A DNA stretch of 35,062 nucleotides from Sphaeroforma arctica JP610 (Eukaryota): positions 12,986-48,047 of the forward strand of contig NW_014039935.1 in assembly GCF_001186125.1 (NCBI RefSeq), written 5' to 3'. Every line of letters begins with the position of its first letter. Within the stretch, counting starts at the first letter, position 1. Under the pieces are notes generated by a model. It saw nothing but the letters and a program-made list of their open reading frames with translations. It did not search any database and had not been told where the DNA came from. The translations under genes were made by a program, and so were the position numbers. This document shows positions 4,687-35,007 of the stretch, one piece after another.

Positions 4687-4996
4687 AACGAACATTAAAT
4701 TCAGCATCTGAATTGCTAGTATGCGTTGCCATCACTCTAGTGTTCATGGGTTGTCGCATTTCCGTATACGTTAGGGGGGCCAGATCGATAAATCTCCACA
4801 GTTCCCATGTTAGTTATGTAAATATTTGTGCTGGTCCTGGTTGCCATTTCTCCATACAAAGGTAGCAAAAGAATAAGAGTGGTAACCGAGACCATTGTAG
4901 CATAACTTTTTTAATTTTTCTTGTCTTCTGCAAGAATTTTTGTATTCGAAGTAACCAACAGGTCTCGACAATCAGTGTAGGTCGGTGTTTTAGTGG

Positions 4997-5413
4997 TTTT
5001 ATACCTAAGGTGTTTGTGCTAGTGTTCAGCCGCTTGAGGTGGCCAGGGTAAATGCTCATATCGTCAGTACGAGAAACCTTCTGCAGAACACTTTAACACT
5101 TCGATGGTATTTCGACATCTCTGCAACTAAATCTCACGCTGATCACATGATACCTTTCCGCATATATTAAAACTCGCTTAGGAATGCAGCTATTTTTAGA
5201 ATGTAGTGGTTGACAGACTTAATCAACTCTCGGGAGTTGGTTGAGAAACTTAATCTGCTTTCGGTAGTCGGCTAAGTAGTAACTCAACTCTCGGGAGTAA
5301 TTTAAATATCTTAATTAGCTCTCGGGAGTGAGCTAACTCCGATGACTTCTATAAATCAAAGAGGTTTTCTTACTGTAAAATCTGGCCTGAGACCTGTAGT
5401 CTCTCACTCGGCT
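4997..5413. repeat. ~420-bp dispersed direct repeat, copy 2
   Basis: Diverged copy of 2117-2540, offset ~2880 bp. Confidence 0.92.
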
Positions 5414-12359: not shown

Positions 12360-12362
12360 GAT

Positions 12363-12434
12363 TGCCTCCGCATGGGATTGAACCATGGACCTTCACATTA
12401 CGAGTGTGACGCGATACCACTTTGCCACAGAGGA
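12363..12434 (-). tRNA. tRNA-Thr-CGT: tRNA-Thr, anticodon CGT (atypical U1:C72 and A12:C23 mismatches; possibly a pseudogene)
   Basis: Reverse complement is TCCTCTGTGGCAAAGTGGTATCGCGTCACACTCGTAATGTGAAGGTCCATGGTTCAATCCCATGCGGAGGCA. Perfect anticodon stem TCACA/TGTGA with loop CT-CGT-AA; perfect T arm CATGG-TTCAATC-CCATG; A and B boxes present; no intron. Confidence 0.92.
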
Positions 12435-14002: not shown

Positions 14003-15992
14003 TCAAACGTTGAATGCAGCCAGAAACTCCGCGGTGGAGTCGGTCTTGGGTCGCTCTGGTATGTGCAGTTGTCGGTGCGCCGCACTCTCTCCGAACGTCA
14101 GAGGGAAGCCCCAACCCCTCTCGACCAACAGCCTGTGCAAAGACAAACACTCCTCCAGTGCCATACCACCCTCTTCTGTAGAAGTACCAATACTATTAGC
14201 CGCCGCGGCTTTGCCCGATCCAGCAGCGGCTGATGACCCACCAGCCGCCTGTAAACTCGCGGTGGGGACAATAACGTTCTCGTTCGAGGTGTTGGTTACC
14301 ATGGCAATGAGATCCGCAACACTCGCCACCTTGGCCGGCACTTCGCCCATACTCAGCACCCGCACCTGTGCATTCGCGTCCCGGGCACCCCCCACAAACA
14401 CACTCAGTGCACGCCTGCACGAGGGTCGCTCAACCACCTTCAACTGGGTGGGCAAGTTCAGTGTCAGCGGAGGCTGAGACTGAGGAGGCTCTGCCTGTGT
14501 GTCAGGTTGAGGCTCGACTTGAGTGCCATTGGCTGCGTCAAGGGGCGCATGCGGCTGTGTGTCGGTTGGTGCGGTGAGTGGTTCGTGTGATGTTGCCAGA
14601 GTGTGGTCTGGGTCGTGTTCGAGTGGGGCGGTGAGTGGTTGGTGGAGTGATTCTACCGGCGCGTCCTGTGGCTGTGATTGAGTGTCTTCTACCGGCTTGT
14701 CCATTGTCTGTGCAGGTGGTTGCGAATGCTCCTGTGCCTGACCCACGAGTGGGCCCTCGCCCGCATCGGTCTGGTCTGTGCTACTGGTGTGGTTGTATTC
14801 ATGCGCACTGACATCCATGTGCGCTTCTTCCACATGGGGTTGGTCCACAGTACCACCGTTCGCGTTCTCCGAGTCCGCCTTGTTCACGTATATCTCGGGG
14901 CTCGTGGTGATGCCCGTGGGGTCTGTATCATTCGGGTGTGGCAGCGTGTGCGGGTACTGACCGACAGTCCCGCCCTCGCCCGACTCCATACCTCCCTCCA
15001 CAGTTACAGTAGGTGTGCCTTGCACATCTAAACCGTGAGGGTGTATCGCACTCTCCCCGCTACTGCCGTCTCCGTTCTGCAGCACCGCGAACGGCGCCAC
15101 CCCCACATCCAGGTGCCTCGTATCGAACGCCATCCCGGTTTCACCCGTCATCATTCCGTTGTCTCCCGCATGCATTTCACCTTCACCGGCCGTCATCCCG
15201 TTTTCCCCAATATCCATCCCGTTTTCCACGATATTCAGCGCATTGCCCCCCATGTTCACGTCGCTCTCGCCTGGGTGTATCCCGTTTTCAACGGGTGCAA
15301 CGGTTTCTGGGGCGGCTTCGGAGGCCGCAGGCATGGTATGCTCGTGCTGGGGGTCCTGCACATCTTCGTCCACCTTCTTACCCTCACTCGCACCCAACGC
15401 ATCGTCCGCAGACACGTGGTACTCCGCCTCGGCGCCCGGAGCTATGACCAGGTCTGTGCTATTTATAGACACTTCCGTATTAGGCACAGGACCCTCGGGC
15501 AGGGACAAGGACATGGGTTCCTCTATCGCCACAGTCACCTTCAAGGGCTCCGGCTTGGCAGGTACAGACGGTAGCCTATCAAGCACCACAAAGTCCAGTT
15601 GCTCACCCAACTTGCCCAGAAGCGATGCGAGCGCACTCTCCGCCTGTGACTGCGCCTCGGCCGCCGCAATACGTCCGTGGGCTGCCGCGTCTGAATCCGT
15701 ACCCATCCCGATATCCATACTCTGCTGCTGGTTTATCGCATCATCACCTGAGTCTGGCACGTATGCTGACGAGGGTGCGCCTACGGCATCGGCCGGCCCT
15801 ACACGGTCGTTCTCTTGTCCTGGACCTGGACCTTCTTTTGGGGCCTCCAGGTGCTCGAGGATATTGTATGGGATGAGTATGAGGCCTTGCTTACGCGTAT
15901 CTAAGCTCACAGATGCGAGCTCCTCAATGGTCGACGGAGTCTTCACTTCAAACCACGCCGGGAACGTTTGTTCTGCATACTCGGCCCATTCA
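14003..15992 (-). CDS. Gene 1 terminal exon 15 (rest of SNF2-like lobe with long acidic/Pro/Gln inserts)
   Basis: Contains the 647-aa ORF. Acceptor CACACAG|T (phase 2), TGA stop at 14005-14003. Confidence 0.9.
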
Positions 15993-18900
15993 CTGTGTGT
16001 GGAATAGTAGAGAGGATGGGGATTCAGGGGTTAGGGGTTATGCTTGCGTGGATGTGCGTATGAAATACAAGCAGAAGGTAACTGTACAGTTGAATGCACG
16101 ATAAGATCATCGGAAATGTACCACAGAATCCTCGCCAAAATGAGTACAAATATATGATATGCAAGTATGCACTAAACTATAATGACATGTGTATAAATGG
16201 AAGGTTCTATCTGAGGATACACATACATGCCACATCATCGACAAGCCTATACTCAACGACATTCCTTCAGATACACATATAACCTACCCAACCGTAGCAT
16301 CCGGACAGAACACCACCGACACAGACGCACGCGTCTGATGCATGGCCAACAGGGCTGTAAGCGGACTACACGCATCGCCATGCTGCACTTTGCTAGCGCC
16401 GCTCTCCACAGCCTTGTCGTCCGTGTTCTTATCCGCATTCACATCATTCGCATCTTGGGCGCGTATGTCCGCGCCTATCTCCCCGCTCACGTCTACGGGG
16501 TTGTCCTGGCTACCACCCGTCCCGCTTTCGGTCCCGGAATCCGTCTCAGAGCGCCACAGACAGAGTCCACCGGCATCCACCACCCGCTTCGATAGCTCAT
16601 CGGCGTACAGGCACTGCACAAGAGTGGGTAGCGTGTACACCTTCTCGTCCGTATCCTCCTCGTCCACACACATGTTAATAGACGGAAGGGTGTTGCCGTT
16701 CAGGGCGTCGCCTGTATCGGGGTCGTTGGGGTTGGCCTGTGCCTGTGCGTCTGGTTTGCCCTTGTCCGTGTCTTGTGGGCGTCTGGTGTGGTAGTTGTAC
16801 CGAGACGGTACATTGCTGCGCGAGTTGAGCGCCGCGCTATACTGCGCGTTGAACTCAAAGGTCAGCTGGTTGTTGTGTTGCTTCAGAGTACCGAACTGTT
16901 TGATGATGAGGTGCGCCAATCCGTTGGCGTCCTCGATCTCATCACCGGCGGTCTCATTGGTCGCCGGGTTCGCATCATCGGTGTTCCCTACAATCTGATT
17001 GGCGCTCACACTCACGTCCTCCATATCCATATTCAGGCTTAGATTACTGCTGTGTGCGGTATCCGCAGTTGCGTTTGGCACAAACGCACTCTGATCCGAC
17101 TCACCCACCGCAGCGTCATTGATATCGGTGTTCAAACTGATCTCGGAGGGTTCTGTAAGTCCGGCCAAGGTAGCTGGAGGCTTGGATGCGGGTTTCTTGA
17201 TCTTGGAGCCCGCCACCACCTAATCGGGGAGAAATGACAGGGGTTAACATGGCTAATATATATATATATAATACTCAAGTATAGAATAGAAGACATTCTA
17301 TATGTAATACACCAGATGAAGTATCGTATCATGGTTGTTCTATAACACAGCATGGCCAGCCTAGTGCATATCTATAGTATAGACACCTCAGAGCCATGGA
17401 GCACATATAATTCATAAGCAGACTGCTAAGAATCACGCACACACTCACGAAATATAAGACAAACCCCACACACCCCTTACAATAAACCACAAATACACAA
17501 TACTTAAACCAAATAAGTCATTACACACACGGACAAAAAGCACCGCCTATACCCGACACAGTACACACAGCGATAAACCACTAACACACACATACAACAT
17601 AAGCATACCATCAAACATCAGAAAGACACCTGCACATGCACAAATCATAAACCATTTAAACACACCAGTACATACACAAACCATACAACATTCAAACACA
17701 CCCGCACATACACAAAACCATCAAACATCACAACACACCTGTGCCCACAGGCGCTGCAGGCCACAGCGCACGAAGAAGTCCGCGTACCGCTTGTCAAACC
17801 AGGGCGTCGCAGTAGCGTTGTGATACATCTCCAGCGCCTTGATCACCTGTACGTCCCCATGGCACGTGCACGTGAGAGGGTGTGCATGGTTAGTCGCAGC
17901 AGAGAGTGCCGGCGAGTGAGCGTGTTTGGGTGCCAGTGGCTACGACTGAGTAGACCACTTGGGTTCACGTAGAATCGTGTATATACGATTGTAAGCACAG
18001 TATCAGTAGTTGAGACGGATGGTGTGTGTGTTTGGGTGCCAGTGCATTGCGTGAATTGAGACGGATGACGGGTATTTCCGATCTTCAGGTGTATGTGTAT
18101 GTGTGTATGAGCGCGTGGTTAGAAGTGTGGATGAAATTAACAAAGGGCGTATGATTCTCATGTGTATGCGACAGCCCACTTGCACGTGGTGGGTTGTAAC
18201 GAATTGGGCGATAGAGTATGACCCCTATCGAACAAGCCGAGCCAGGGCAGACCATAGTCCTGCAATGTCTGAGAGAGTGTGGGTAAAGGGTGTCTGGACT
18301 GAGGAAACACCTATCATAGGTACGGCAGAGTCTGAGTAAAGACGTCAGTATAGTAAGTGCGTGTAGGGTATATGAAACGTAGAGGGAAGCGAAGACCAAT
18401 GCTGCACTGACTCACAGACTTGGATTACAAAGCCGCAGTAGGACATAGAGGCAAACATACAAGCAATCACCCCAAGATGACCGGAAAGATTAACGTATAC
18501 TGGGCTGAAGCACCCCCACACAGAACGTAAATGATATAAATCTAGATTAAATTCTGCAAATCCAGACGTTTGTGAATGTATATACACTGGGGATTGCACA
18601 AACTACAACTTACCGCGTCGAAGATGTCCTTCTCCGCAGGCACCCCAAAGATCTCAAACGTGCCCACGCGTCCAACCAGAACGCGTTTATTTTTATCCAC
18701 ATCTCCGAGCTCCGTCACATCGCCAGCCGGTTCATTCGCACCCGCCCTGGCATTGGTCTCCACATCGCTTGCCTTGGGTGCTGCGCCTGCCTTCGCGGCC
18801 TTCTCCCTCTCAACTCGCTTCTCCTTTTCGGCACGCAGCACTTGCTCGATCACGGTGGGCGGGGGGTCCCAACCGACAAACACACGCAGCTCTTCATACG

Positions 18901-21900
18901 AGTATGTGCGAATGGTTTTGAGTAGGACCTGTAGGTAGATGAGATATGGATATTGGTAGGTAGGTAGCTGGTTAGAAGACTACATATCCTGTAAGCGCAT
19001 GAGCATGTATGTATATGCATGCGCGCACATCTATGCATAGGTGCAAATATGTCCACCGAAGTAGAATCAGAGTTCACGCCGATGCTGTGAAGATATTATT
19101 GATAGTTCACGACGTCCAACCACAGTCGACAGCGCTCCGTTTGTGACAGTCCTTTCCCACATCACCCCCAGACACAAACAGTAAACAAGTCACAGTCACA
19201 TACCACTACACGTGCGTAGCTACTGATATATGGCCCCTCCCACCAAGCTCGCCTCATTGAACGTACGAGAAACACTAAACAAGTCACAGTCACATATCAC
19301 TATGCGTGCGTAGCTACTGCTGTATGGTCCCTCACACCAAGCTCACCTCATTGAACGTACGAGAAACACTAAACAAGTCACAGTCACATATCACTACGCG
19401 TGCGTAGCTACTGATGTATGGCCCCTCCCACCAAGCTCACCTCGTTGAAACGTACGATAAACATTAAACAAGTCACAGTCACATATCACTACGCGTGCGT
19501 AGCTACTGATGTATGGCCCCTCCCACCAAGCTCACCTCGTTGAACGTACGATAAACATTAAACAAGTCACAGTCACATATCACTACGCGTGCGTAGCTAC
19601 TGATGTATGGCCCCTCCCACCAAGCTCACCTCGTTGAACGTACGNNNNNNNNNNNNNNNNNNNNACGTAGCTACTGATATATGGCCCCCCCCACCAAGCT
19701 CACCTCATTGAACGTACGGGAGCGTGGATGTGCAGCCGAGTACATATTAAACACGGTGTGCAGCTCCGTCAGTGAATAGTCATTCAGTAGCAACCCACTC
19801 GCACTCGCCGTGTCACGTGACCCCAACAGCGCCGCCACACAGCGACGTACACCGTCCATTCCATCGGCAACACGCGGGCGGACGGCCGCCCCCCGCAGCT
19901 GCCCATATGAGGCAGGCTGCGGATGCCCATATAAGGGAATCTGCGCGGGCAGCATGCCCGTGCCGACACTCGGCGCATCGGTTGGTCCGAGCTCGTCCAT
20001 GGTAGGTAGCATGGTGCTCCCGTCTCCGGGCAGCAGCTCCACCTGCGGCTTTGCCTTGAGCCCCAGGGCCTTACACTTGGTACAACCGCTGCGTTGCTTG
20101 CGCTCGGCAATGAACACGTGCGAGATGTCTGTGGTGCAGCCGAATAACACCTTGCGTTTGGCGGGGAGTGCCTTGAACTGATCGGCGTTGGCTATACGCA
20201 CCACGCCTGTGTGTACAGAGGAGGGTGTTATAGGAAGAGTGAGTGGGGTTTTATCAGGTGAGTGAGTGTGATGCAATAACAGAGAATGGGTCACGGGAAG
20301 AGTGAGTGTGGTTTAGTATCAGGTGAGTGAGTGTGGTTTAGTATCAGGTGAGTGAGTGTGGCGCAGTATCAGACAGTGTGTATCGGGAGCCATGTACTAT
20401 ACCAACACAAATGGCTATCCACCGCAACAGAGTGTGCCGGGAGTGCCCTAGAGTGCGTCTAACCGCAAGCCAAGCCAAGCCCTCCCTAAGCATACTCTAC
20501 ACCGCCAAAGCCACAGAAACCAAACACCCAGCCGTGTCACCGTGCACACACTCACCATTGGTACTCTCCATGATAAGCCTCTCCAGATTACGCACCACCT
20601 CGTCTCGGTGTAGGTTGGGTGGGGCGAACATGTCCTCGTCCGCGTTTCGGCCGGGCAGCAGGTACATGGGCTGCACAGTGCAGTTAGCGCAGCCATTGAC
20701 CCCACAGAAACGGCAGCCGCACGCCACGGTGCAGTACCCGGGTTGGATGACCTGGCGAGAGTGTGTGTAGGTAAGAGAGTGGGAGTGAGAGAGTGTGTGG
20801 GGAAGTGTGGACAGGACGTCCCGGCCCGTGAAGTTCGGAACATACACGGCAGATTGAACTGATTTGCACCATTCTTCTACGTATATACATGTGCATAATA
20901 TATATGGCCTTACAAACCCAAACCCAAGCACAGACGCACACATACCAGGCGTATTTGTGAGGTAGTATACATGTACATAATATATGGTCTTACAAACCCA
21001 AACCCAAGCACATACGCACCCACGCCCGCTCACACACATACCAGGCGTATTAGTGAGGTAGTATACATGTACATAATATATGGTCTTACAAACCCAAACC
21101 CACCCACACCCGCTCGCACACATACCAGATGTATCTGTGAGGTACTGCCACTGGTTATCATCAGCGGCTCGGCAGTGCCCAGGCCTTGGCTGGAGTTCTT
21201 GGAGCGTTGCTTGAGATCGGCGATTTCTCGGTTCATCGTACACTGGGTGCAGCCTTTCTTCTGCTTGCGCTCGGCTATGAAGAAGTGCTTGAGATCGGCC
21301 GTACACCCGTACACCACCTTGCGTTTCTCGGAGAGCTTCTCGAATTGCTCCACGGTGCGTATGCGCTTGCACTTCTCGCCGGCTGGAGAGGATAGGGGCG
21401 GTCGAGTGCGCCGAGATGGGGGTGAGTGTGGCAGGTAAGACACTTGGAGAGTCTCTTGAGGAGTACGGGGATTAAACTTTAGAAGGACGTGTGCGTAGAT
21501 AGGAGGGTTGACATATGGTTGGGTGTCTTGAACAGTTATGTGTATAGATGTTTCTCGGAAGTCACGAGACGTATACATGAATACGTACACACGGGTGTAA
21601 TGTCTTTTGCAAATAGACCGAGCTCTCCCACTTGGGCCATATTTAGGTATGTCTCATTATATGTGTCACTATACAAACCTTCACTGTGAGTGGCAGTGGT
21701 AGTGGTGATGATGTACGTGCGGTGGTATTCACATAGCTATTTATGGATCTCTTTCACACCACACACACCCATCTCTAGACTGTCCAGGTAGGCCACAGCG
21801 GCAGCCTTAGTGGTGACGTGCGCAGGGATAGTGGGCACATGGGACAGATTGCGCCCCGCCAGTTCAAACATGGGCTGCACAACGCACCTGGTATTGACAA

Positions 21901-24900
21901 AAGAAAGCCGAATCTATAAATAGAATGTCACAGGGCTTGATACTTGCGGCGGATATAAAGTACATTTTGAAGGGCCAAATATAGAGATACAATCGACTCC
22001 GCAAGGTTTAAATAAGGAAAACAAATGCCATGCCGGTTTGTCCCTACATATGCACACACCTTTATGCGTACAGACATATTATATGTACACCTATCATACA
22101 CACACACACATACCTCTTAAATCGTACAGACATATATATGAATACACCCTTTTCATATCAACACATGTACACACATACCTCTTTTAAATCGGACAGATAT
22201 ATATATATATATGAACACGCTCTTTTACATACCAACACATGCACACACAAACATCTTTCTCTTAAATCGTACAAACATATATACACACACACTCTTATAC
22301 ATACCAACAAATGCACACACACACACACACATCTCTGCGTGCAGACATGTATATGCACACCTATCACATTCGTCCTCACAGTGTCGGCAGGGTTTCTTGA
22401 CGCTGATGTAGTTGAGGTCGCGCGTGGGTTTGTGCTCCGAGGCCATTTGGTTGTTGTCCATATCGTTGTTGGGTGTGTCATTCAGATGTCTGCATTGGCG
22501 GCACCCCAGTTTCTGTTTACGTTCGGCGATGAACATGTGGTCCACATTGCGGATGCACCTGATGCATAATATTTTTGGGTGGTGGATCAGGACAAAATTC
22601 CGAGCTTGTCTTTTGTTTTGACTGTAATTCCTATGCCGACGAACAATGTGCACTGGATTAAGCGTGGCTAAACACACATACACACACTTATATATATATA
22701 GATAGATATAGATATGTACATATACTTTACTCACATGTATGCATCGAACAACATCGACATGTACAGTCAGATATATAGCAAGTCACACACACACACACAC
22801 TTACACACATACGCAGGTGTATACATAAGACAATACCCATGCACGCAGGTGTATATATACAAATCACCCACAGCCACCCACACGCACAGATGCGTGCAAT
22901 ACACGCACTCACCCATAGACCAGCTTGCGCTTGGCATAGAGCTGCTCGTAGTGACTCACGGAGCGTATGCGCACCACCCCGGGATGCTTCAGGCCCTCAA
23001 TATGGGACACAAAGTCCTTTCTGGTGCTGAGGGTGGGGGGTAGGAACTCGTCTGGGTCAACCAACCGGCCGGGGAGGTCATACATGGGCTGGATAGCACA
23101 GGATGCACACCCTTCATTGTTACACTTGCGACAGCCTTTCATCACTGCGGAGGTGAGTGGGTGTGGGTGAGGCATGGGCTGAGTGAGATAAACAGAGCCG
23201 AGAGGGTAGAGTATGCACACCCTTCATTGCTACACTTGCGACAGCCTTTCANNNNNNNNNNNNNNNNNNNNNNNNNNNNNNNNNNNNNNNNNNNNNNNNN
23301 NNNNNNNNNNNNNNNNNNNNNNNNNNNNNNNNNNNNNNNNNNNNNNNNNNNNNNNNNNNNNNNNNNNNNNNNNNNNNNNNNNNNNNNNNNNNNNNNNNNN
23401 NNNNNNNNNNNNNNNNNNNNNNNNNNNNNNNNNNNNNNNNNNNNNNNNNNNNNNNNNNNNNNNNNNNNNNNNNNNNNNNNNNNNNNNNNNNNNNNNNNNN
23501 NNNNNNNNNNNNNNNNNNNNNNNNNNNNNNNNNNNNNNNNNNNNNNNNNNNNNNNNNNTCATCACTGCGGAGGTGAGTGGGTGTGGGTGAGGCATGGGCT
23601 GAGTGAGATAAACAGGGCCGAGAGAGTAATAAAGCATGCACACTCCTCATTGGTATACCTACGACAGTCTTTCCTCACTGCGTAAGTACACACCCCTACA
23701 AGACGCCCTACCTGTGACAAAATCGGCAAGACCATGGCCCTTGGCACCCGTCGCAGTAGGGCCCAGGGCGTTGGTGCTGGACCCGGAATTCACTATTCCC
23801 ATGGTAGACCCGGGTAGTGGTGCGGTGAGTCGATCGCCTGTTTGGTACGCGGACGGGTTTGTACTGGGAGAGGGTACTCCGGGTAAGGATGCCGAGTACG
23901 TATTGGTATAGTTGAGCTGAGTCCTGTAGGGATCTGGTACGAGGACGAGGAAAGGAATAGGAGTGTAAGGGATGATTTATATATATTATTCGTTGGGAGG
24001 GGGGGGGGGGGAAACAAACAAACAAACGCATTTATAAGGGTATACATGTAACGTAACAGTTTATTGCTTGTCATAGCAGGGGCGAGTTGATCGCTGGGAA
24101 AGGACACGGACAGGGGATTACGTAAAGTACGTATTCATATACGGACTTATTCAATCATACAGAGTTTGCTGACATCTGGGAAATACCTTGAACGTAAAAA
24201 CATGCGAACGCATCTGTGGTTTGTCATCTCCCATATCTGTTGCTAACTCGGATTGATTCGTCTGCAAGGACACCGTGGTGTGCAAACCTTTACGATGCTG
24301 TATGACTTGCAGCATGTGAGCTCATACACACACACACATATATATATACCCATACATACCCATACACACACACATATATACATCCCTTGACGCTAGCATC
24401 TGTAGCATTCCCATACCTGCTGCCTGGTCGTACTGATTGGCATACAAGGACACCATGGTGTTCGGGCTGGGTGTGGCATTGGCGTTGGGTGGCATGGTCA
24501 GGCTCACTTGCGACGGCACGGCAGTCAAGGGGAACTCTTTGGGGTCACCGGTCCTTTCTAGCAGACATTGAGGACAGCCCTTTTTCTGCTTCTTCTCGGC
24601 CACGAAGAAGTGGGGGATGGTGTTGAGACACATGTACAGTAACTTCTTCTTATCTACGAAGGTGGAAGAGAGAAGCGGGTGGTTAGGGTGTGGTATGTTT
24701 ATGCCACACGTGAATTGATACAGCTCTACAATTGCGTTGATGAAGATCGACTCCATCTGGCCCTCTCCCCTATTCTCTCGACGCATACAACTCACACATA
24801 GAGACCACGTACACATATGTGTATAGTTTATGTATACAAAGCAGACAAATATAAAAAAATCAATATAATATAATATAATATAATATATATACATGTACAT

Positions 24901-26208
24901 TTCCTCTTGCAGATATTTCACCACCACACATCACAGCAACGCTACACATACCTGGCAATGTTTCGAACTGGTGCGGGTGGGTGACGTGCATAATGTGGTC
25001 GTCGTGTAGATCGCGCAGATGCGTTAGCAGTTCCCTGGGTAGAACAGAGTGCGTGGGTAGGTAGTATTCTATTAATAGATCTTCGAGCGGTTCTACAGTA
25101 GGTAACAAAGGTACGATCACATACACTCAGAGACGAGAAGGTACCACGCCTCAAAACTGAACAGTAAACCGCACGTCCTTACAGGATTCTCAAGCGTCTA
25201 TAGCTCATCCAAACGGCAACATAAAAGAACCGCCCCCCCCCAAAGGGAAAACCCAAGAACCCAAAGTATGTGGAATGGCAAAGGCCGGGGGTGTACCAAC
25301 CTCAAGCCCATGGTCGGTGAAGGGCAGAACTGTGAGATGTCGATCTGTCGTCCGGGCAGCACAAACATGGGCTTCACACAGCACACCACACAGCCCACTA
25401 TGCCCGTGCAGTACTTGCAGTCCTTCTTGACGGCTATGAAGCTCATGGGCGCGTCCCAGTCCTGTGAAAGGGGACAGGTAACGGGGACAAAAGGACCGGG
25501 TGTTTTGTGACAGGACAATATGGGGTACGGTATAACAACCGCTTGTTTGACCGATATAGAGATCATGGGTGGACCTTATAGGGAAGGGAATACTAAGGGC
25601 AAAATGAGGACATTTTGGTACCCCCGCCCAAAAAAAATCCTTGTGGTGTTTATAACCTTTTTTTTAACGGTCAAAAAGCACACGAGTGCTTTCTAACACC
25701 CAATCGTAATATTCCAAATAGGAGTTACCCATATGGTACGTTTGAAATGAGTGCCAGTGCATGCATGTGACTCAAAACGTAGCACACCACACAGCCCACT
25801 CCCCCGGTGCAGCACTTGTAGTCGTTTCAGGATGATACAGAGCGCCAAAAAGTATCCCACAGCCCCCAATTTTGATAAATTTGGCCGAGTTTTCGGAAAC
25901 GAGAAAAGAAATTGCTACAGGCACGCATACCAGCAACCACTTATACACAACACCTATAAACAATTTCATTTACATTCCACAGGTAACTACATATAAACAA
26001 TATCAATAGCAAATGAAACCGCTACCTATGCACCTAAACGCAGCCATATATACTCAATACATAAATGTAAACACGTGTACATAATATATAATACTCCAGT
26101 CGAGCCACTCAGAGACAGGGGTCATACGGGTGTGGCAGCTTTGTACGTCTTCTTGCGCTTGGAGACCATTTCGGTGACGCCGTAGCCGTCTGCCGGGCGT
26201 TTCTCCAT
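14003..26208 (-). CDS. 15-exon gene, 1877-aa protein: 4 tandem Cys/His (putative zinc-binding) modules + unknown middle domain + degenerate SNF2-like ATPase N-lobe
   Basis: Hand-spliced exons: 26208-26128, 25461-25301, 25034-24952, 24653-24417, 23933-23712, 23144-22913, 22558-22361, 21887-21769, 21382-21126, 20751-20556, 20206-19704, 18928-18614, 17846-17739, 17219-16288, 15992-14003. All introns are GT-AG with matching phases. Total 5634 nt = 1878 codons from ATG to TGA. Splicing restores the internal protein repeats across junctions. The product call is by eye from motifs. Confidence 0.85.
16288..17219 (-). CDS. Gene 1 exon 14 (acidic low complexity + start of SNF2-like lobe)
   Basis: Matches the 311-aa ORF. 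Acceptor CGATTAG|GTG, donor GG|GTAGGT (phase 2). Confidence 0.88.
17739..17846 (-). CDS. Gene 1 exon 13 (VIKALEMYHNATATPWFDKRYADFFVRCGLQRLWAQ), absent from the ORF track
   Basis: GC-rich island within a CA-rich intron. Acceptor GTACAG|GTG, donor CAG|GTGTGT; 108 nt, phase 0/0. Confidence 0.8.
18614..18928 (-). CDS. Gene 1 exon 12 (VLLKTIRTYSYEEL...KDIFDA)
   Basis: Acceptor CCTACAG|GTC, donor GCG|GTAAGT; 315 nt, phase 0/0. Confidence 0.85.
19182..19718. repeat. 94-bp tandem array (at least 5.5 units, contains a gap) overlapping the exon 11 donor
   Basis: TAAACAAGTCACAGTCACA at 19182, 19276, 19370, 19465 and 19559. Confidence 0.95.
19704..20206 (-). CDS. Gene 1 exon 11 (module 4 C-half + start of middle domain)
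   Basis: Acceptor CACACAG|GC, donor GAG|GTGAGC. Confidence 0.85.
20252..20371. repeat. Short intronic repeat (GTATCAGGTGAGTGAGTGTG, ~25-bp period)
   Basis: Three to four imperfect copies in intron 10. Confidence 0.75.
20556..20751 (-). CDS. Gene 1 exon 10 (module 4 N-half CRFC..CANC, QPMYLLPGR)
   Basis: Acceptor CTCGCCAG|GTC, donor ATG|GTGAGT. Confidence 0.85.
20880..21144. repeat. 84-96-bp tandem array (x3) overlapping the exon 9 donor
   Basis: Repeated ATAATATATGGyCTTACAAACCCAAACCCA...CACATACCAG. Confidence 0.9.
21126..21382 (-). CDS. Gene 1 exon 9 (module 3 C-half KRKVVYGC..HFFIAERKQKKGCTQC)
   Basis: Acceptor CTCTCCAG|CC, donor CTG|GTATGT. Confidence 0.85.
21769..21887 (-). CDS. Gene 1 exon 8 (module 3: CVVQPMFELAGR...), absent from the ORF track
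   Basis: Acceptor ATACCAG|G, donor ATGG|GTGTGT. Phases 2/1 fit both neighbours. Confidence 0.85.
22361..22558 (-). CDS. Gene 1 exon 7 (module 2 end, module 3 start)
   Basis: Acceptor GCATCAG|G, donor AG|GTGTGC. Encodes HMFIAERKQKLGCRQC and KKPCRHCEDECDR. Confidence 0.85.
22913..23144 (-). CDS. Gene 1 exon 6 (module 2: CRKC..CASC, QPMYDLPGR)
   Basis: Acceptor CTCCGCAG|TG, donor GG|GTGAGT. Confidence 0.85.
23103..23683. repeat. 110-bp tandem array overlapping the exon 6 acceptor (largely within an assembly gap)
   Basis: ATGCACACCCTTCATTG at 23103 and 23213; CATCACTGCGGAGGTGAGTGG at 23140 and 23560; diverged copy at 23636-23683. Confidence 0.88.
23712..23933 (-). CDS. Gene 1 exon 5 (S/T/G/P-rich linker)
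   Basis: Acceptor GTACCAG|AT, donor ACAG|GTAGGG. Open in the required frame; phases 1/1. Confidence 0.75.
24417..24653 (-). CDS. Gene 1 exon 4 (module 1 C-half KKKLLYMC..H..KQKKGCPQC + linker)
   Basis: Acceptor CTTCGTAG|AT, donor GCAG|GTATGG. Confidence 0.85.
24952..25034 (-). CDS. Gene 1 exon 3 (module 1 middle)
   Basis: Acceptor CTACCCAG|G (phase 2), donor CCAG|GTATGT (phase 1). Confidence 0.8.
25301..25461 (-). CDS. Gene 1 exon 2 (module 1 N-half: CKYC..CVVC, KPMFVLPGR)
   Basis: Acceptor CTTTCACAG|GAC, donor AG|GTTGGT. Confidence 0.85.
26128..26208 (-). CDS. Gene 1 exon 1 (MEKRPADGYGVTEMVSKRKKTYKAATP; basic NLS-like KRKK)
   Basis: ATG at 26208, donor CCC|GTATGA, phase 0 matches exon 2. 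The start codon is not independently confirmed. Confidence 0.65.
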
Positions 26209-29200
26209 GATCGCAGTATTAGATGTTACCTACCCGTGTTTGTCGGGGTGCCCTAGAGAATAAAGAATAGTGATTCGTAGTTGGAGAGTTATAATTGTAT
26301 CGGAAGCTGAAAACCCCTTTTATGATGATATCCATCAATATAGCATAGTTTATCAGTATTCATTGAATAATTCTTAAAGATAATATATATATATATATAT
26401 ATATATATCAAACCCCATACTACCGTAAGAGATACACTAATATAGCAAGTGGCAGTAATACGGCTAAATAGACATGGCGAGTAAGATATATACGCCACGT
26501 CCAGGGGAAGCAATAGCACATGTTCGACAGGACATATGCGAGCAATATATATACAGGTGTACATACATCTTAGCATATAACCAGATTTACCTACACTGAG
26601 ATATTCGGAGGTGTGCAGATTGTACATTTGTATCGTAACGGACAATTCTTTTCATGTAAATGTGTGTCACACTCACTATATATACATACATGCATTGTGT
26701 ATACACCAAGTCGATGCGAATAATATGAATTCCCACCGATTGCTTGTATTAGCGACTACCAATGCGCATCTGACACAACTTTCTGGGGGGTTCAGGGTTA
26801 CAAAAGAGAGCGACTTTGTTCAACCGCTGCATTGACGACGTGACAAAGACAATGAGTGGTCATAAACCACACAGTCCTTATCCTTATACGTACCATTCAG
26901 CACCCCATTCGCATGTGAATGTACACAGATTGTGTGTGCTTCAGTTGTCTAATGTAGTTACTAACTCTAAATCCGACATATACAACAGGAGAGTGGTCTT
27001 ACTATATTTGGATGTGACCCTATTCGCATACTTATTCAATTAAATGCGTGTATATACAGTTGCAGTTCTCGCAATAAGAGCGTACAGTGTTGGCCCGAAC
27101 GTAACAGTACACCATCCCACAGAACCTCGCAATGCGCCATGTCTTATAAATAGGTGTACACACGCAAACCCCACCCCAAAACCCCACATCCCAACTAAAT
27201 GAGGCGCTAGTGTCAAACTTAAGCCCTTTTCTCGCGTAATGGGTGAATGTACCGGCCATAGACAGGTGCTATAGTAGGACCATATTCTATGTAACAAGGT
27301 GGATACTCCATCTTAAATGAATTATATAAACAGAGACACAGCTGTAGTTATATATACCGCTGTACACGTTACCAGAGCTTACTATGGAAGAGCCATACCT
27401 CACATAACAAGACAAATGATTCACTGGAACGTAACTGATACTAAAGTAGAATAGTCGCCTGAGTGTTAAAAAGTTTTCCCACAATACGAAAGAGACTGAG
27501 CATGTTACGAGACGACGACGCATGTAGTGTGCAGTGAGTTGTCCACGCCCTGTCTTATTCACACAACACACACATATGCCAAGAGGAGTGTAGCACGGAT
27601 GTAGTGTTCAGCGGATGCATCACGTGCTCCTTCATTTTAAATCACATGTACGCCTCACTATTGCACGTTTCGCACGAGAATGAGAATGCCACGGGATGTC
27701 CAACACGCATGTAGCGTGCATCCGATATAACACGCAGTCCTTCATTTATGTATACATACGCACGGCTGTCAAGAGGTAAGCCATAGACTTAATATGTCTT
27801 TCATACACACACACACACACATACGCGTAGCCGTACCTTTATCGGTACAAGACCTCTGGATGGAGTGTGGTGTACAGTCCCAGAAAAGCCTAATCCCCCT
27901 GACACGGTCAAGCAAGTATATAGTATACACTTGGAGGCGAGTAACCTCACTGTTGTGTTTAAATATGCCCCACTTCACAGGGTTTACTGGATACTAGTAA
28001 GCTATACTCAATGACCATGTATCCTGGGGGGGGGGGGGGGGTTGTATGTGCACCTTGTTATGCCGCTATAGTCCTATAGACCCGATCGGTTGTGTTTGCA
28101 GTCCTCTAGAGAGACCTATACCCGTTTTATGTAAAATGTAAGTGCAACAGATACCCAGAACCTTTTTGTGCGAGTGCGTCTTTCTGTTATAAAGTTATGC
28201 CTCTATTTCCTACACAGCTGGATATGGGGCGTTTGGAGCTGGGAGCAATAAAGAATTTGTGTTTTATTCTCATGCTGTTGTTTTTATACCCCTTTTCCTA
28301 TATAAACTTGTTGGGGTTTCAGACATATTCGAAATTTTCCGTCGGAAACTCTAAATTTTATTCAATTTGCATCAGTTTTTATTATCAGACTTCCCTCCAG
28401 AAAATATTTTCGCCACTTTTTATTTCCAACGGTCGCTGCCTCTGATATGAGGTTTGGGGTTTGAAACAAACATTTTAGGACATATTTGTCACTTTGCCAT
28501 AGGTCCCCAAAACCCAAGTGACAGTGCCAAAATTTAAAAAAATTGCAAAACCCCTGAATGTCGGTGTATTGAACTATTGGATTATTTATATTCACTTTTC
28601 CGATCCATTGTGTGATTTCGACGTGCCTTCAGAGTCTAGTCAGAGGTTTTAATGCAGAAGCCGAACTGAGAGTATTCTAAAGGCCGTCATCACAAAAGCA
28701 ATGACACTGCACAATATTAAACGTCGTAATTTCTCGGGCGAATATGATTGATCGAGAGAAGGAGATGTGTCATACGGGTGAGACGACTTATGTGTATTGG
28801 GATCGACAAATGAGATCGCCACAGATTGTGAGATAAACATGAAATATTTAGCTAATATATGTATTCATTTATACAATTTACTAAGTGTATACATATATGT
28901 TGCACTTGTATGCATGTATAATATAAATACATATTTAAAACTTGCTTGTGGTACATATGAGTATGACTACGACTATAAGTCTATAACTACAGACTCTATA
29001 CATATGCATGAGCAGCTAGTAGTATACATCAGGTAGCAAACAGATGAAGTGTCCCTCCGATCACTATCCATCCAGTACTAAATAGACCACTCGACTAGAC
29101 ATAGTCAGGGGGAGGTCAACTCTCTGTATCTACATAAAAATCTGAAAATATAAACATAAATGAGACACGCACTTCTTGAATAAGGTATGCCATCTTTGTG

Positions 29201-29689
29201 GTAGTGATTTCCCTCACGCATGCACTATCACTTTGCAGCCTTTTGAAATGAAGCTCTTCGATTCGTGTATCGAGTTTACTACCATTTATTAAATGGCCGC
29301 AGCATATGTACTGGTGCATTGCATCGTGCATCTATTTTAGGACTGTTTGATCACCGGCAGACTCCGTTTTGAGCTCATACATATAGATAAGTCATGTGAA
29401 GTTTAGTGGCCAGTTCACCGTTTAACATTAAAATGGGTATATACATATCTGAACGTATTAGTATAGTTACGTGTATCTGTACGCACTCGTTATCACATAG
29501 CCATTACGTTGAAGGATTCAAGTCAGCCACATATATTTAAATCCATAAGTTGTGCTACGTTTTTGAATATGCATACTGTATTACACGTTAATCTGTATTC
29601 AAAATCGGAATGAATACATAGAAATATATCTATACATGATTTTTGATATAGAAATATTTGCATAGAAATACGCATATACTTATGCACGT

Positions 29690-29815
29690 CTACACACACA
29701 TGCACACACGCAAACACACACACGCACACACACACTCTCTCTATATATCACGCACACACACACACACGCTCTCTCTATATTACACACACACACACAATCA
29801 CACACGCACATGTAC

Positions 29816-29846
<31 letters not shown>

Positions 29847-29847
29847 T

Positions 29848-29898
<51 letters not shown>

Positions 29899-29992
29899 CG
29901 TATTTATNNNNNNNNNNNNNNNNNNNNTATATATTTATATATACTTACATACATATACATATACATACATGCATTCAAACATACAAACATAA

Positions 29993-30065
<73 letters not shown>
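29690..30065. repeat. Compound (CA)n/(TA)n microsatellite with a gap
   Basis: Directly visible. Confidence 0.95.
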
Positions 30066-30316
30066 CTGCACATGTGAGTATGTATCTGTTTGTACGTATA
30101 CATGTGTCGACGTTTACCGTAATTTATACATATCTGTATATCTATACAAGCTAACCTATATGCATGTATGTAAGTACATCTATATATGTACATTTATATA
30201 GACTTTCCTATTTGGACAATCGAAAGTTACACACACAACCATCATTTTGTATAACCACTGTCATGGTACTGATCTTCACCCTTTCCAAATTGTTACAGTA
30301 GCCAGAGTTCTTCAAA

Positions 30317-32008
30317 ATGTCGAACTCGCAACCGGATTTAACGAAGACGAGTGCCCTCTCACCTGTCGGTGCTCTGGGCAAACCAGGCAAGCGTGGACAC
30401 AGGTTGGCAGCTGTAGTTGGTTTATATGTGTATTAAGATATACATTTGTTTATACATAAACCCTTACTGTTTGTGTCATCGATTAATATGTCTTTGTATG
30501 CATGCATGTCTAAGTATATGTGCATTAAGATATACATTTGTTCATATATAAACACTTACTGTGTGTGCCATCTATTGTTGTGTCTATGTATGTATACATG
30601 CGTGACCAAATATATGTGTATTAAAATATACATTTGTTTAAACATATACAATCACTCTTTGTACCGTCTACGGTCATGTGTGTGTATGCATGTCTATCCA
30701 GGTAGACGTGTAGGTCTATGCATTTGTGTGCATATGCAATGAATCTCTGTTTTTTTTTTTGCTTGAAACAGAGTATACGTAATATTATAATTGATGTTGT
30801 GATACAGTTCATAATTCTGTATGGCATTGCCCGTGTATTCTCATCGGAGTTTCAGGGTCACATTTGTAGAAACAACAGAAACGAATCGAATTTTATGTAA
30901 ATAGAAACAGTAGGAAATCGATCTATGTGCATATAAACAGTAGGAAATTGATCCATATGTACATATAAACAGTAAGAAACTTATTTATATGTACATAGAA
31001 GCAGAAGTAAACTGATTTATATCTATAGGCAATTTAAGTTGTTTGGCCCTGCCTATAATTCCTATTCAAGCGCACTTATCCATGCATCCAAGGTAGTGAT
31101 ATCAGTGCAATATGCATAGCAGGATTCAATTGTGGTTGTATATACACCTGGTATAGTGTTATAAACATACGCTTGTCCATGCAGTATACATAGAAGCAGT
31201 CATGCGCATTTATATACACAGCCGAAATCACACGGTGGTTTTAGGGGTTTAGGGTTTTCTAGCTTAGAGAACCCTATTGAGGTAGGGTTTTCTAAGTAAT
31301 TGGCAACTGACGGAACAGTCACGAGGGTTTGCCCGAAGTTCGGCACAATTGATTGGTGTGAAAGACTGTCATCATGTCCGCTAACTCAGTTATAGGCGTA
31401 GACTACAGTGACAAATACAGCATATACATAGTTACACACTTATCAATTCAGTCACGAACAGGCATTACAGAGATATGCACAGTAGGTATGTACATATACA
31501 TATATATACATATACATAAACATAAAAATATATATACATAGCACATATATATATACATATGCATATACGTATACATATTCATGCTCCATGTCAACTTAGA
31601 ATACAATCACGTGTCTATCGCATGCTTAGCTGCGCCTATTCTACTGTTCGTGTTATACGCGAGAGGGTTCGACCGGAGATCGGCTGCATCCATTCGTTCA
31701 GAAGACCATCACCGCACCTGTCAATCCACTTCGTAGGCACAAATAGCAGCGGCAAGCGCAAAACAGGTGGGCGTTATGTCAGGCCATACCAAAACCCTAA
31801 ACACTAAACCCTAAAACCCGGAAAGAGCGCATTGCCTTGCATAAATACACACACACACACATACACACACACACACACACACACNNNNNNNNNNNNNNNN
31901 NNNNNNNNNNNNNNNNNNNNNNNNNNNNNNNNNNNNNNNNNNNNNNNNNNNNNNNNNNNNNNNNNNNNNNNNNNNNNNNNNNNNNNNNNNNNNNNNNNNN
32001 NNNNNNNN

Positions 32009-32107
<99 letters not shown>

Positions 32108-35007
32108 CGGCACCTCTTGCCATGTGTTCAGTTGATTTACACGTGTTACCGTGTGCTTATGCACATCTGTTCAATACTTTGGCTTTGCAGGCGAGAGGGT
32201 TCGACTGGGGATCGCTTGCACTCGTTCTTCCAAAAGACTGTCACGACACCCGTCAACTCACTCATAGGCACAAACAGCAGCGACAGGCGGAACAGTATGA
32301 AAGCCTCGACAAGCGATGAGCGGACACGCAGTGATTGGGGTCCAGGAGTGTATGTATACGTAGTCTGTTAATATATCTATATAATTGAAATAGAGTGTAT
32401 GTATGTGTAAATAGTATGTGTATATATCTATATACCAAAATGGAATGTATGTGTATACAGCACGTGGATGTATCTCTATACTCATAATGGAGTGTATATG
32501 TATATGTGCATGTATGTTGATATATCAAAACCCTGTATACAAAATATAGGGTGTATGTGTGTATGGATCTTTATCAAATCTGTATATTTAAAAATGGAGT
32601 GGAATGGCTGCACCTGACGTGCATTGAGATTCATGTACGTGTAAATGTACATACGAAATGGCTAGTGGACGTGCATTAAGATTCATGTATGTGTAAATGT
32701 ACATACGAAACGGTTAGTGGAACGGATTCTGTAACAACACACTTCACCACATAATATTGGTAATTATATATGTGTATCTGTATCGAAGAAATAGTTATAA
32801 ACAGCACAACATTGGTAATCATGTACGTGTATCTGTGTAGAAGAAATAGCTATAAACAGCAACCTTTTCTGTACACTCACACTTAGCCACCTAAAATTGA
32901 AGAGATGCACTTTCGTATATTCAGAGACTTTCTGGTTTGAGTTAATTGGCGTCTCTGCCTATGTGAACCTTCCCTGTATCCCTTTTGCAAATATTCACAC
33001 TTAAGATCAAAATGGGTCCTGTCGTACCAAAATAACCGGACAAGTAACCCCGTTCGCTGGAAAATGAGGACTTGGAGTACGACCTAACCCAATTTTTTGC
33101 CTTATTTTTGTCACAGAACGGCGTATGGGGCCGACTACACCGACTACCGCAGGAAGCTCATGAACATTAAGAATGTATGCTGCACCCATCCATGTGTCCA
33201 ATGTTCTATTTTAGGTGCAATACATTACGGTTCGGGTTCAGAATGTTAGTGAACCCTAAAATCGGGCCACTATTTCATATTGTCCACTCGGTTAAGGGCC
33301 ACTTTCAGGCCGATACTGTTTAAGATCGCGCCGCATTCGATCCTTTGTCTAGTTGTATTCCGATTCAAGGCCTGATCATATCTATAGCACGATTGTCTAA
33401 TACTTTCAGCTCGTTTATATTCCACTTTCAAACTATTGCTTTCAACTCGTTTATATTCCACTTTCAAACTATTGCTTTCAACTCGTTTATATTCCACTTT
33501 CAGGCCAAAGGAGAACTAGAATAATACTAAACTATTGCTTTCAGTTCGTTGATATTCCACTTTCAGGCCAAAGGAGAGCTAGAATAGTACTAGACTATAG
33601 CATTCAGCTCGATTATGTTCCACTTTCAGGCCAAAGGAGAGCTAGAATAGAACTAGACTATTGCTTTCAGTTCGTTGATATTCCACTTTCAGGCCAAAGG
33701 AGAGCTAGAATAGTACTAGACTATAACATTCAGCTCGTTTATATTCCACTTTCAGGCCAAAGGAGAGCTAGAATAGTACTAGACTATAGCTTTCAGCTCG
33801 TTTATGTTCCACTTTCAGGCCAAAGGAGAGCTAGAATAGTACTAGACTATTGCTTTCAACTCGTTTATATTCCACTTTCAGGCCAAAGGAGAGCTAAAAA
33901 AGTACTAGACTATTGCTTTCACCTCGTTTATATTCCACTTTCAGGCCAAAGGAGAGCTACAGCAAGACATGGTGGTAGATCTGGAGCAGCTGATGCTGCA
34001 ACAAGAAGAAGTCGATGACAAGCATGTGCGTGACGTTGCAATGAGTCATGTTTTTACAAAGCTTTACTTGGTTTGAGTATATTCGTTCTCCTTTTAAAAC
34101 GCAAATGTTCTGTTGTATTGGGGCTGTTTTGCACAGCACCAGGTGCTGCATTGTATGAATATATTAGGGCTGTATTGCATGAACATAGCAGGGTTATATA
34201 TCAAAGTTGTATATTGTATGAATGTATTATGGTTATGTATCAGGGTTATATATTGTATGAGAATATTGGGGTTTTATATCAGGGTTGTATATTGTATGAG
34301 AATATTGGGGTTGTATATCAGGGTTGTATATTGTAAGAGAATATTGGGGTTATATATCAGGGTTGTATAATGTATGAATGTATTAGGGTTATGTATTAGG
34401 GTTATATATCATTAGGGTTATATATCAGGGTTATATATTGTATGAGAATATTAGGTTTGTATATCAAGTTGTATATTGTATGAATGTATTAGGGTTATGT
34501 ATCAGGGTTGTATATTGTATGAATATAGCAAGGTGGTATGGCACGAGGTCTGTTTCTACAGCATGTAATTCACTATATCACACGCAGCAGTATCCGCATT
34601 GACAGTTAACACGGAGAGAAAAGATATGTCACCCATCTATACCTAGCTAGGACCATTATAGATAAGCTAACCAAACTACTATATGCAGGCGACATTCACT
34701 CATTTGAAGATAAAGCATTGGGTTTTAGGGTTTAGCAGAAAGGGTTTTAGGGTTTTAGGGTTTTAGTTGTGTATGCGGAATGAGACAAGGTCAGTTGTCT
34801 AGTCCACGCAATCAATGGGGTGTGGCAGACCATTGAGACCTCAGAAGCAAACAATTACACACGCGGGTATGCAGACTTAAACAAGCACATCATGTACGTT
34901 CACGAGGATAAGGGGATCATGAAGGAGAAGAAGGTACCACACAATATGGTTTGTGATGATTTAGCCTGGTTGTCATATAGGAAGATAAGAAGATCGAGTT
35001 GCGCTGT
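30317..35007 (+). CDS. Partial multi-exon gene 2, unknown product, possible PH-like domain, truncated by the window end
   Basis: Candidate exons: 30317-30402 (MSNSQPDL...GKRGHR), 32191-32347 (REGSTGDRL...WGPG), 33945-34025 (AKGELQQDMVVDLEQ...DDKH), ~34803-34933 (HAINGVWQ...KEKK), 34981-35007 (EDKKIELRC). The first three join in phase. The junction into the 34.8-kb exon is unresolved, so an exon may be missing. Confidence 0.6.
30870..31020. repeat. Degenerate ~30-32-bp minisatellite (AAACAGTAGGAAAT...)
   Basis: AAACAGTArGAAA at ~30905, 30935 and 30968. Confidence 0.7.
31659..31762 (+). pseudogene. Degenerate duplicate of gene 2 exon 32191-32292
   Basis: Reads REGSTGDRLHPFVQKTITAPVNPL, then a +1 frameshift, then VGTNSSGKRK. 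The acceptor CAG is replaced by TAC. The upstream intron sequence is also homologous. Confidence 0.85.
31847..32107. repeat. (CA)n(TA)n microsatellite with a gap
   Basis: Directly visible. Confidence 0.95.
33397..33959. repeat. 63-bp tandem array (8 acceptor-bearing units, preceded by 36-bp subunits) overlapping a gene 2 acceptor
   Basis: TTCCACTTTCAG ends at 33503, 33566, 33629, 33692, 33755, 33818, 33881 and 33944. Confidence 0.95.
34150..34528. repeat. 39-bp intronic minisatellite (~9 units)
   Basis: GAATATTGGG at 34261, 34300 and 34339; consensus close to GGGTTrTATATCAGGGTTGTATATTGTATGAGAATATT. Confidence 0.9.
34718..34766 (+). repeat. Short telomere-like (TTTTAGGG/TTTAGGG) tract
   Basis: GGTTTTAGGGTTTAG...AGGGTTTTAGGGTTTTAGGGTTTTAG. 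Confidence 0.7.

What the first reader, a model, noticed from the sequence alone, without database searches (positions are those of the whole stretch)
19182..33959. Recurrent pattern: intronic tandem arrays that copy the adjacent exon-intron junction
Seen: four unrelated arrays in two genes each have a unit containing a real splice site plus 15-45 nt of exon. They are the exon 11 donor (94 bp), exon 9 donor (84-96 bp), exon 6 acceptor (110 bp) and a gene 2 acceptor (63 bp). A fifth case duplicates an acceptor with ~100 nt of exon. Inference: either a duplication process biased to junctions that lengthens introns, or survival bias, since duplications wholly inside exons are purged. Either way the spliceosome must choose one true site among up to eight near-identical ones, which points to exon definition or NMD clean-up. 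It could also seed alternative splicing or new introns.
Basis: partly seen in the sequence, partly recalled or inferred. Interest (0 to 1): 0.7.

Follow-up and report, generated by a model that had tools for sequence, protein, structure and literature searches.

The report
Dense splice-site repeats lengthening protist introns
In two genes of the single-celled animal relative Sphaeroforma arctica, short DNA duplications have copied real splice sites into more than half of the introns while the assembled RNA uses only the copy next to the exon, a repeat type already known from lancelets and humans that here likely arises from ordinary duplication in short introns and may help explain why this species' introns have grown.

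Summary
All four arrays sit on RNA-confirmed splice sites, and in each the spliced contigs use the exon-side copy. DNA runs from several studies hold the repeats in multiple copies, so they are not assembly artefacts. Gene 1 is identical to S. arctica SARC_07680. A systematic scan found 20 duplication families in 17 introns. Ten touch a junction (7 carry 15 nt or more of exon), and duplicated excess is about 40% of intron length. This is a known kind: amphioxus 'mirages', the human F7 intron-7 VNTR, CBS 844ins68. This scan has already logged similar single-locus cases in animals. A junction-biased process is not needed: 60-110-bp units in introns of about 300 bp cross a junction 30-46% of the time by geometry. 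Observed 10 versus 7.1 expected (P=0.11) with collapsed introns, 5.9 (P=0.03) age-ordered. With 10 nt or more of exon, 7 versus 5.3-6.3 (not significant). A residual bias up to about 1.7-fold is not excluded. What is new is the density, the non-animal host and a candidate mechanism for published intron lengthening in this species.

The parts
14003..26208 (-). Gene 1 coding span, 15 exons, 1,877 aa, identical to P0001 (named SARC_07680, Sphaeroforma arctica); no Pfam family
19176..19721 (-). 94-bp array copying the exon 11 donor (15-18 nt exon); real donor 19703 used; decoys read into a stop at codon 10
20881..21144 (-). 84/96-bp three-copy array of the exon 9 donor (19 nt exon); real donor 21125 used; first decoy is in frame with no stop
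23100..23682 (-). 110-bp array of the exon 6 acceptor (42-45 nt exon), filling almost all of intron 5; 307-N gap inside; real acceptor 23145 used
33468..33959 (+). 63-bp, 8-copy array of a gene 2 acceptor (15 nt exon); last copy (33944) used in X16 and X20; all 7 decoys meet a stop within 9 codons
33397..33502 (+). 36-bp intronic sub-array derived from the intron part of the 63-bp unit; older CCACTTTCAG|GCC copy at 33308
31579..31761 (+).
24176..24281 (-).
22054..22366 (-). Diverged 72-bp array starting at the exon 7 donor (about 6 nt exon)
17551..17742 (-). Diverged 36-bp array starting at the exon 13 donor (about 3-4 nt exon; may only abut it)
32345..32606 (+). Diverged 47-50-bp array starting at the donor of gene 2 exon 32191-32349 (about 5 nt exon)
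25781..25826 (-). 46-nt piece of exon 2 (85%) in intron 1, offset 401; junction itself not alignable, crossing only inferred
20215..20372 (-). Purely intronic 63- and 25-bp arrays, ending 8 nt short of the exon 11 acceptor (control class)
30423..31025 (+). Purely intronic 92-96-bp array (starts 20 nt after the donor) and 32-bp array (control class)
32616..32861 (+). Purely intronic 52-bp and 55-bp duplications (control class)
30317..34025 (+). Gene 2 exons seen: ..30402 (ATG at 30317; donor inferred from loose ends), 32191-32349, 33117-33174, 33945-34025; continues beyond the window

Best explanation
These are real tandem duplications of exon-intron boundaries ('mirages') that likely come from ordinary local duplication of 25-530 bp, are likely kept because the mRNA is unchanged, and likely expand by slippage or unequal crossing-over. 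Shown: the arrays lie on true splice sites; the exon-side copy is the one in the spliced contigs; as many duplications are purely intronic (10 of 20). Inferred: in introns of about 300 bp before duplication, a 60-110-bp unit that survives has a 30-46% chance of crossing a junction, so no targeting is required. Copies that carry much exon and divert splicing would be purged, which would explain the short exon share. The spliceosome likely chooses by position (the site adjoining the full exon: exon definition or F7-type 5'-first selection), with NMD as a likely back-up for most decoys. Old decoys decay (GT to AT, GT to GC, AG to AC). The net effect is intron lengthening.
For: Spliced contigs use the exon-side copy at all four young arrays: X17 for the three gene 1 sites, X16 and X20 for the gene 2 site. 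The 20 families split 10 junction-touching and 10 intronic. Null with collapsed introns: 10 observed vs 7.06 expected (P=0.11), and 7 vs 6.25 with 10 nt or more of exon (P=0.44). Age-ordered null for 10 nt or more: 7 vs 5.25 (P=0.23). Exon share of the unit is skewed low (mean 0.27 vs 0.5, P=0.005; four young arrays 0.25, P=0.045), as a filter predicts; the human FGG duplication with 169 nt of exon disrupts splicing (PMC9052919). The first exon 9 decoy has the same 9-mer, is in frame and stop-free, yet is not in the contig. Identical internal units (2=4 over the 51-nt core in the 63-bp array; 19629=19535 in the 94-bp array) fit block expansion. Same behaviour in amphioxus mirages and the F7 VNTR.
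Against: Counting any exon overlap, the age-ordered null gives 10 vs 5.9 (P=0.03), and 22-family versions give P=0.057 (collapsed) and 0.02 (age-ordered). Post hoc, 8 of 20 array edges lie within 20 nt of a junction vs 3.2-3.9 expected (P=0.008-0.026), though not significant at 10 or 50 nt under those two nulls. The sample is two genes, families, excess lengths and ages were hand-assigned, and contigs cannot measure minor decoy use. Collapsing intron 5 leaves only 34 nt before the outermost decoy, so a later deletion must be assumed. The low exon share may partly reflect eroded ends of old copies.
Confidence: 0.68

Rival explanations
1. Duplication breakpoints are mechanistically biased to exon edges (for example by chromatin, base-composition transitions, or transcription- and splicing-linked breaks), on top of the survival filter.
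For: 10 vs 5.9 under the age-ordered null (P=0.03); 8 of 20 edges within 20 nt of a junction (P=0.008-0.026); low exon share; TRF arrays of period 20 or more are denser in the two gene bodies (15 in 18.2 kb) than in the rest of the window (4 in 15.9 kb) (no RNA was laid on that rest).
Against: Not significant with collapsed introns or with 10 nt or more of exon. The edge window was chosen after seeing the data. My scan probed junctions specifically, and a junction copy keeps one side conserved, so it stays detectable longer. No molecular signature such as consistent microhomology was tested.
Confidence: 0.22
2. The decoys are functional: they supply regulated alternative sites or unproductive splicing that tunes expression through NMD, or they are intermediates of new introns or exons.
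For: Most decoys would give premature stops; NMD genes are inferred conserved in the ichthyophonid ancestor (PMC5560861 section 14); S. arctica has the highest exon skipping among unicellular holozoans (PMC6142364 passages); the mirage intron-gain model exists.
Against: No joint to a decoy among the rows shown for 4 spliced runs (2 joint rows were not shown). Old decoys lose their GT or AG, which argues against selection to keep them. Units and genes are unrelated.
Confidence: 0.07
3. The arrays are assembly artefacts.
For: Two arrays contain N gaps; one X7 contig joins 23138 to 23559, as if the 110-bp array were a single copy.
Against: Copies differ by patterned substitutions; DNA runs of separate studies show multi-copy depth and contig breaks at the arrays; X12 holds a further variant unit.
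Confidence: 0.03

Closest known systems
Amphioxus 'mirages' (Adh3, globins BflGb6 and BflGb9, troponin C, PGBD5); PMC3087553 (passages read), PMC3902484 (passages read)
   Same: Minisatellite-like tandem copies spanning an exon-intron boundary, at both donors and acceptors; units of 10-160 bp there; many but not all copies keep AG/GT; normal splicing undisturbed; identical internal units.
   Different: Here the host is a unicellular holozoan; ten junction-touching families occur in 17 introns of two neighbouring genes; an age series from 95% to 65% identity is visible; length instability between haplotypes is not shown here.
Human F7 intron 7 37-bp VNTR; PMC1557585 (abstract and Discussion read)
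   Same: First unit spans the donor; 5-9 identical donors; only the most upstream is used, even where pseudo-sites would give no premature stop.
   Different: One locus, tested by mutagenesis; here there is no mutational test, acceptors are involved too, and evidence is contig-level.
CBS 844ins68 (passages of PMC13282417, a secondary description) and the FGG 403-bp exon 8-intron 8 duplication (PMC9052919 abstract and Results part 1)
   Same: Single junction duplications: CBS leaves the mRNA normal; FGG, with 169 nt of exon, breaks splicing. Together they illustrate the survival filter.
   Different: Single duplications segregating in humans, not multi-copy arrays.
Intron gain by tandem duplication of an AGGT-containing coding segment (Rogers model; PMC3265369 passages)
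   Same: Local tandem duplication involving splice signals.
   Different: That model makes a new intron from exon sequence; here the copies fall into an existing intron and exon number is unchanged.

Membership tests
Mirages (PMC3087553) | Tandem, minisatellite-like duplication spanning a true exon-intron boundary | tested here: met
   Four young arrays on RNA-confirmed sites.
Mirages (PMC3087553) | Both 5' and 3' boundaries can be duplicated | tested here: met
   Donors of exons 9 and 11; acceptors of exon 6 and of a gene 2 exon.
Mirages (PMC3087553) | Many but not all copies keep AG/GT | tested here: met
   GC copy at 19252, AC copy at 31658, AT copy in intron 4; the other listed decoys are intact.
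Mirages (PMC3087553) | Regular splicing is not disturbed | tested here: met
   Major contigs use the exon-side copy (X17; X16, X20). Minor use cannot be measured from contigs, and X18 does not bridge the gene 2 junction.
Mirages (PMC3087553) | Concerted turnover inside the array, boundary units set apart | tested here: inconclusive
   Identical internal units exist and the real copy is closest to an edge or adjacent copy (1-2 differences), but there are only 5-8 units and one gap.
Mirages (PMC3087553) | Copy-number instability between haplotypes or cells | tested here: inconclusive
   An X7 contig skips the 110-bp array where X1 and X12 break; graph simplification explains this equally well.
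F7-type position-based donor choice | Pseudo-sites become active when the upstream site is mutated | not testable with these tools
   Needs a minigene or an edited strain.
Intron gain by tandem genomic duplication (Rogers model) | A new intron whose donor and acceptor come from two copies of an exonic AGGT segment | tested here: not met
   All copies lie inside one existing intron, and each RNA joint spans the whole array. Orthologous intron positions in Creolimax could not be checked (protein only).

The most novel reading that the evidence does not exclude
In Sphaeroforma arctica, local tandem duplication is the main engine of the recent genome-wide intron lengthening, and its breakpoints are mechanistically drawn to within about 20 nt of splice junctions. 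Thousands of introns would then carry decoy splice sites, forcing position-based (exon-definition) splicing in a protist and contributing to its animal-like exon skipping.
Probability: 0.18. Interest if true: 0.68.

Novelty: new member of a known kind. Interest (0 to 1): 0.34.

Why it matters
Grau-Bove et al. 2018 (PMC6142364, passages read) report that most S. arctica introns are longer than their counterparts in Creolimax and Capsaspora and that the species has unusually high exon skipping; the passages I read give no mechanism for the lengthening. In these 17 introns about 40% of the sequence is duplicated excess (median length 483 now, 298 collapsed), a concrete and testable candidate. The arrays are also natural cis-competition experiments on splice-site choice in a close relative of animals. 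The junction pattern itself is a described phenomenon and mostly follows from geometry, which limits the surprise.

Tried and rejected
No whole genome is held, so no genome-wide test was run. No RNA holder was on record; X16, X17, X18 and X20 were recognised as RNA by their GT-AG joints. X18 does not cover 33176-33965 and X5 shows no cover at 33478-33768: these holes were not used as evidence. Pfam found no family for the whole proteins (0 of 2) and only three sub-threshold matches on 1 of 13 exon pieces. A metagenome scan for relatives found 592 pattern matches and no confirmed locus, so no orthologous intron DNA was available for gene 1. The null on present-day intron lengths (10 vs 4.8, P=0.006) was rejected as inflated. 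A longer exon share in the 110-bp unit (a further match around a 9-mer) was not significant (p=0.08 and 0.15); no hidden exon part was found in the other three units (p=0.21-0.90). Junction homology for the exon 2 piece in intron 1 was not shown (p=0.37 and 0.48). Rows left out of the main count: the 5'-UTR intron family and the 39-bp array of the incomplete last intron (added, similar result), and repeats with period under 20, microsatellites and weak TRF rows. Literature searches listed no paper on such repeats in ichthyosporeans; only the open library was searched and no supplements were read (those of PMC6142364, PMC5560861 and PMC3087553 may bear on this).

Full report
Setting. The window holds two facing-away genes with short, AT- and CA-rich introns. 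No whole genome was available. A search with exon 11 returned two proteins: P0001, named by NCBI as SARC_07680 of Sphaeroforma arctica, and a Creolimax orthologue, P0002. The exon model defined by RNA gives 1,877 aa with 0 differences from P0001. Neither protein has a Pfam family.

Splice sites are real. Run X17 gave one spliced 6,134-nt contig whose 14 GT-AG joints define all coding introns of gene 1. For gene 2, runs X16, X18 and X20 join 32349 to 33117, and X16 and X20 join 33174 to 33945; loose ends in all three place the upstream donor at 30402. So 17 introns are RNA-supported, 16 by joints and 1 by loose ends. For three of them the duplicated exon piece (15-19 nt) is shorter than the 31-letter words mentioned in the tool output, so the contig path is specific to the real site (inference). 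For the exon 6 acceptor (42 nt shared) the argument is weaker: the RNA contig runs unbroken where DNA contigs of X1 and X12 break. Contigs drop rare forms, so minor decoy use is not excluded, and two joint rows were not shown.

Not artefacts. Summed contig depth over the 94-bp array is raised in X1, X7 and X12 (210, 164 and 3,655 at 19511, against 61, 36 and 483 on long single contigs nearby). X12 holds a variant 110-bp unit that is missing from the assembly gap. X5 shows about doubled depth on pieces of the 63- and 36-bp arrays. Depth is not a copy number, X12 may be the source of the assembly, and no long reads were seen. One X7 contig skips the 110-bp array, which may be graph simplification or a real loss.

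Full inventory. Junction probes with shuffled controls, self-BLAST of each intron with its exons and sensitive TRF gave 20 families with period 20 or more in the 17 introns. Ten touch a junction: the four young arrays (80-95% identity); three old copies with 45-103 nt of exon (exon 4 donor, GT to AT; gene 2 acceptor, AG to AC; an exon 2 piece whose junction is not alignable); and three diverged arrays that start at a donor with only 3-6 nt of exon. Ten are purely intronic. Duplicated excess is 4,126 of 9,897 intron bases (42%), 34% from junction-touching families. These are hand-assigned figures that include nominal N gaps.

Is it more than chance? I placed each unit at random on the two genes and discarded placements that change the mRNA. 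With introns collapsed to pre-duplication length, units of 63, 84, 94 and 110 bp cross a junction with probability 0.30, 0.38, 0.41 and 0.46. Observed versus expected: collapsed, 10 vs 7.06 (P=0.11) and, for 10 nt or more of exon, 7 vs 6.25 (P=0.44). Age-ordered: 10 vs 5.91 (P=0.03) and 7 vs 5.25 (P=0.23). Present-day lengths: 10 vs 4.79 (P=0.006), inflated because the arrays lengthen the introns. Adding two left-out families gave P=0.057 and 0.02 for any overlap, 0.30 and 0.17 for 10 nt or more. Against my reading, 8 of 20 array edges lie within 20 nt of a junction versus 3.2-3.9 expected (P=0.008-0.026), a post hoc window that is not significant at 10 or 50 nt under the collapsed and age-ordered nulls. 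Detection favours junction copies, since I probed junctions and the exon side stays conserved. Geometry plus survival therefore explains most of the pattern; a residual bias of up to about 1.7-fold remains open.

How the right site is chosen. Decoys match the real sites closely: the same donor 9-mer in four exon 11 decoys and both exon 9 decoys, and 1-6 differences over 51 nt among the eight gene 2 acceptors. Site strength therefore cannot decide; position likely does. Most decoys would give premature stops (codon 10 at exon 11, codon 7-9 in gene 2), so NMD could hide them, and NMD genes are inferred conserved in the ichthyophonid ancestor (PMC5560861 section 14). The first exon 9 decoy adds 28 codons in frame with no stop, yet the contig uses the real site, which favours selection at splicing; this is one site in one run. 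The exon share of the units is low (mean 0.27 of the possible range, P=0.005; young four P=0.045), as expected if copies with much exon are purged. The human FGG duplication with 169 nt of exon is such a harmful case.

Comparison with what is known. The human F7 intron 7 VNTR has 5-9 identical donors of which only the first is used. Amphioxus 'mirages' are the named class: tandem copies of exon-intron boundaries that leave splicing normal and were proposed as a route to intron gain; I reached that name through earlier scan notes and checked it in the papers. CBS 844ins68 is a tolerated single case (secondary description). De Grassi and Ciccarelli list human tandem repeats at exon-intron boundaries (Results part 1 read). 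The Rogers route to new introns does not fit, since the copies lie in existing introns. Eight paper searches listed nothing on such repeats in ichthyosporeans; the library is incomplete and no supplements were read.

Verdict. A real, RNA-confirmed and unusually dense set of mirages in a unicellular holozoan. The pattern is a known kind and largely a geometric expectation. Its value is as a candidate mechanism for the recent intron lengthening reported for S. arctica, on the evidence of two genes only. Interest 0.34.

Noticed in passing
window 34793-34990 (+), last intron of gene 2: An open stretch of about 64 codons ends at 34984. In run X20 (organism C, a close relative) a low-depth contig runs from 34411 to 34984 and joins, in frame, the next exon of gene 2. 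The window reads ATAAGA after 34984, one base from a donor, so an alternative exon or donor may be live in the relative and dead here (inferred).
   Followed up: partly
window 34159-34527: The purely intronic 39-bp array is also present, diverged, in organism C (X20), so at least one array predates the split.
   Followed up: partly
window 19704-25461 (gene 1 exons 2-11): The protein has about four cysteine-rich modules (CxxC pairs with QPM..LPGR and H.FIAERKQK motifs) conserved in Creolimax, with no Pfam match. Intron positions differ between modules by eye, which suggests intron gain or loss after module duplication.
   Followed up: partly
window 26253-27836: Gene 1 has a 5'-UTR intron of about 1,584 nt and an upstream exon ending at 27837 (loose end in X17); it holds one weak intronic duplication (offset 110, 71%).
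   Followed up: partly
window 23678-23711: The outermost decoy acceptor of intron 5 lies only 34 nt from the donor and lacks the unit's intron part, so a deletion or a more complex history is implied.
   Followed up: partly
window 2114-2540 and 4994-5413: A dispersed duplication of about 430 bp (82-90%, offset about 2,875) containing a 31-bp repeat; 4311-4448 and 4547-4684 are a further direct pair.
   Followed up: no
window 12361-12430: A tRNA-like stretch seen by eye on the minus strand; not scanned.
   Followed up: no
window 31361-31413: A weak third copy (72%, E=0.012) of part of gene 2 exon 32191-32349, offset 872.
   Followed up: no
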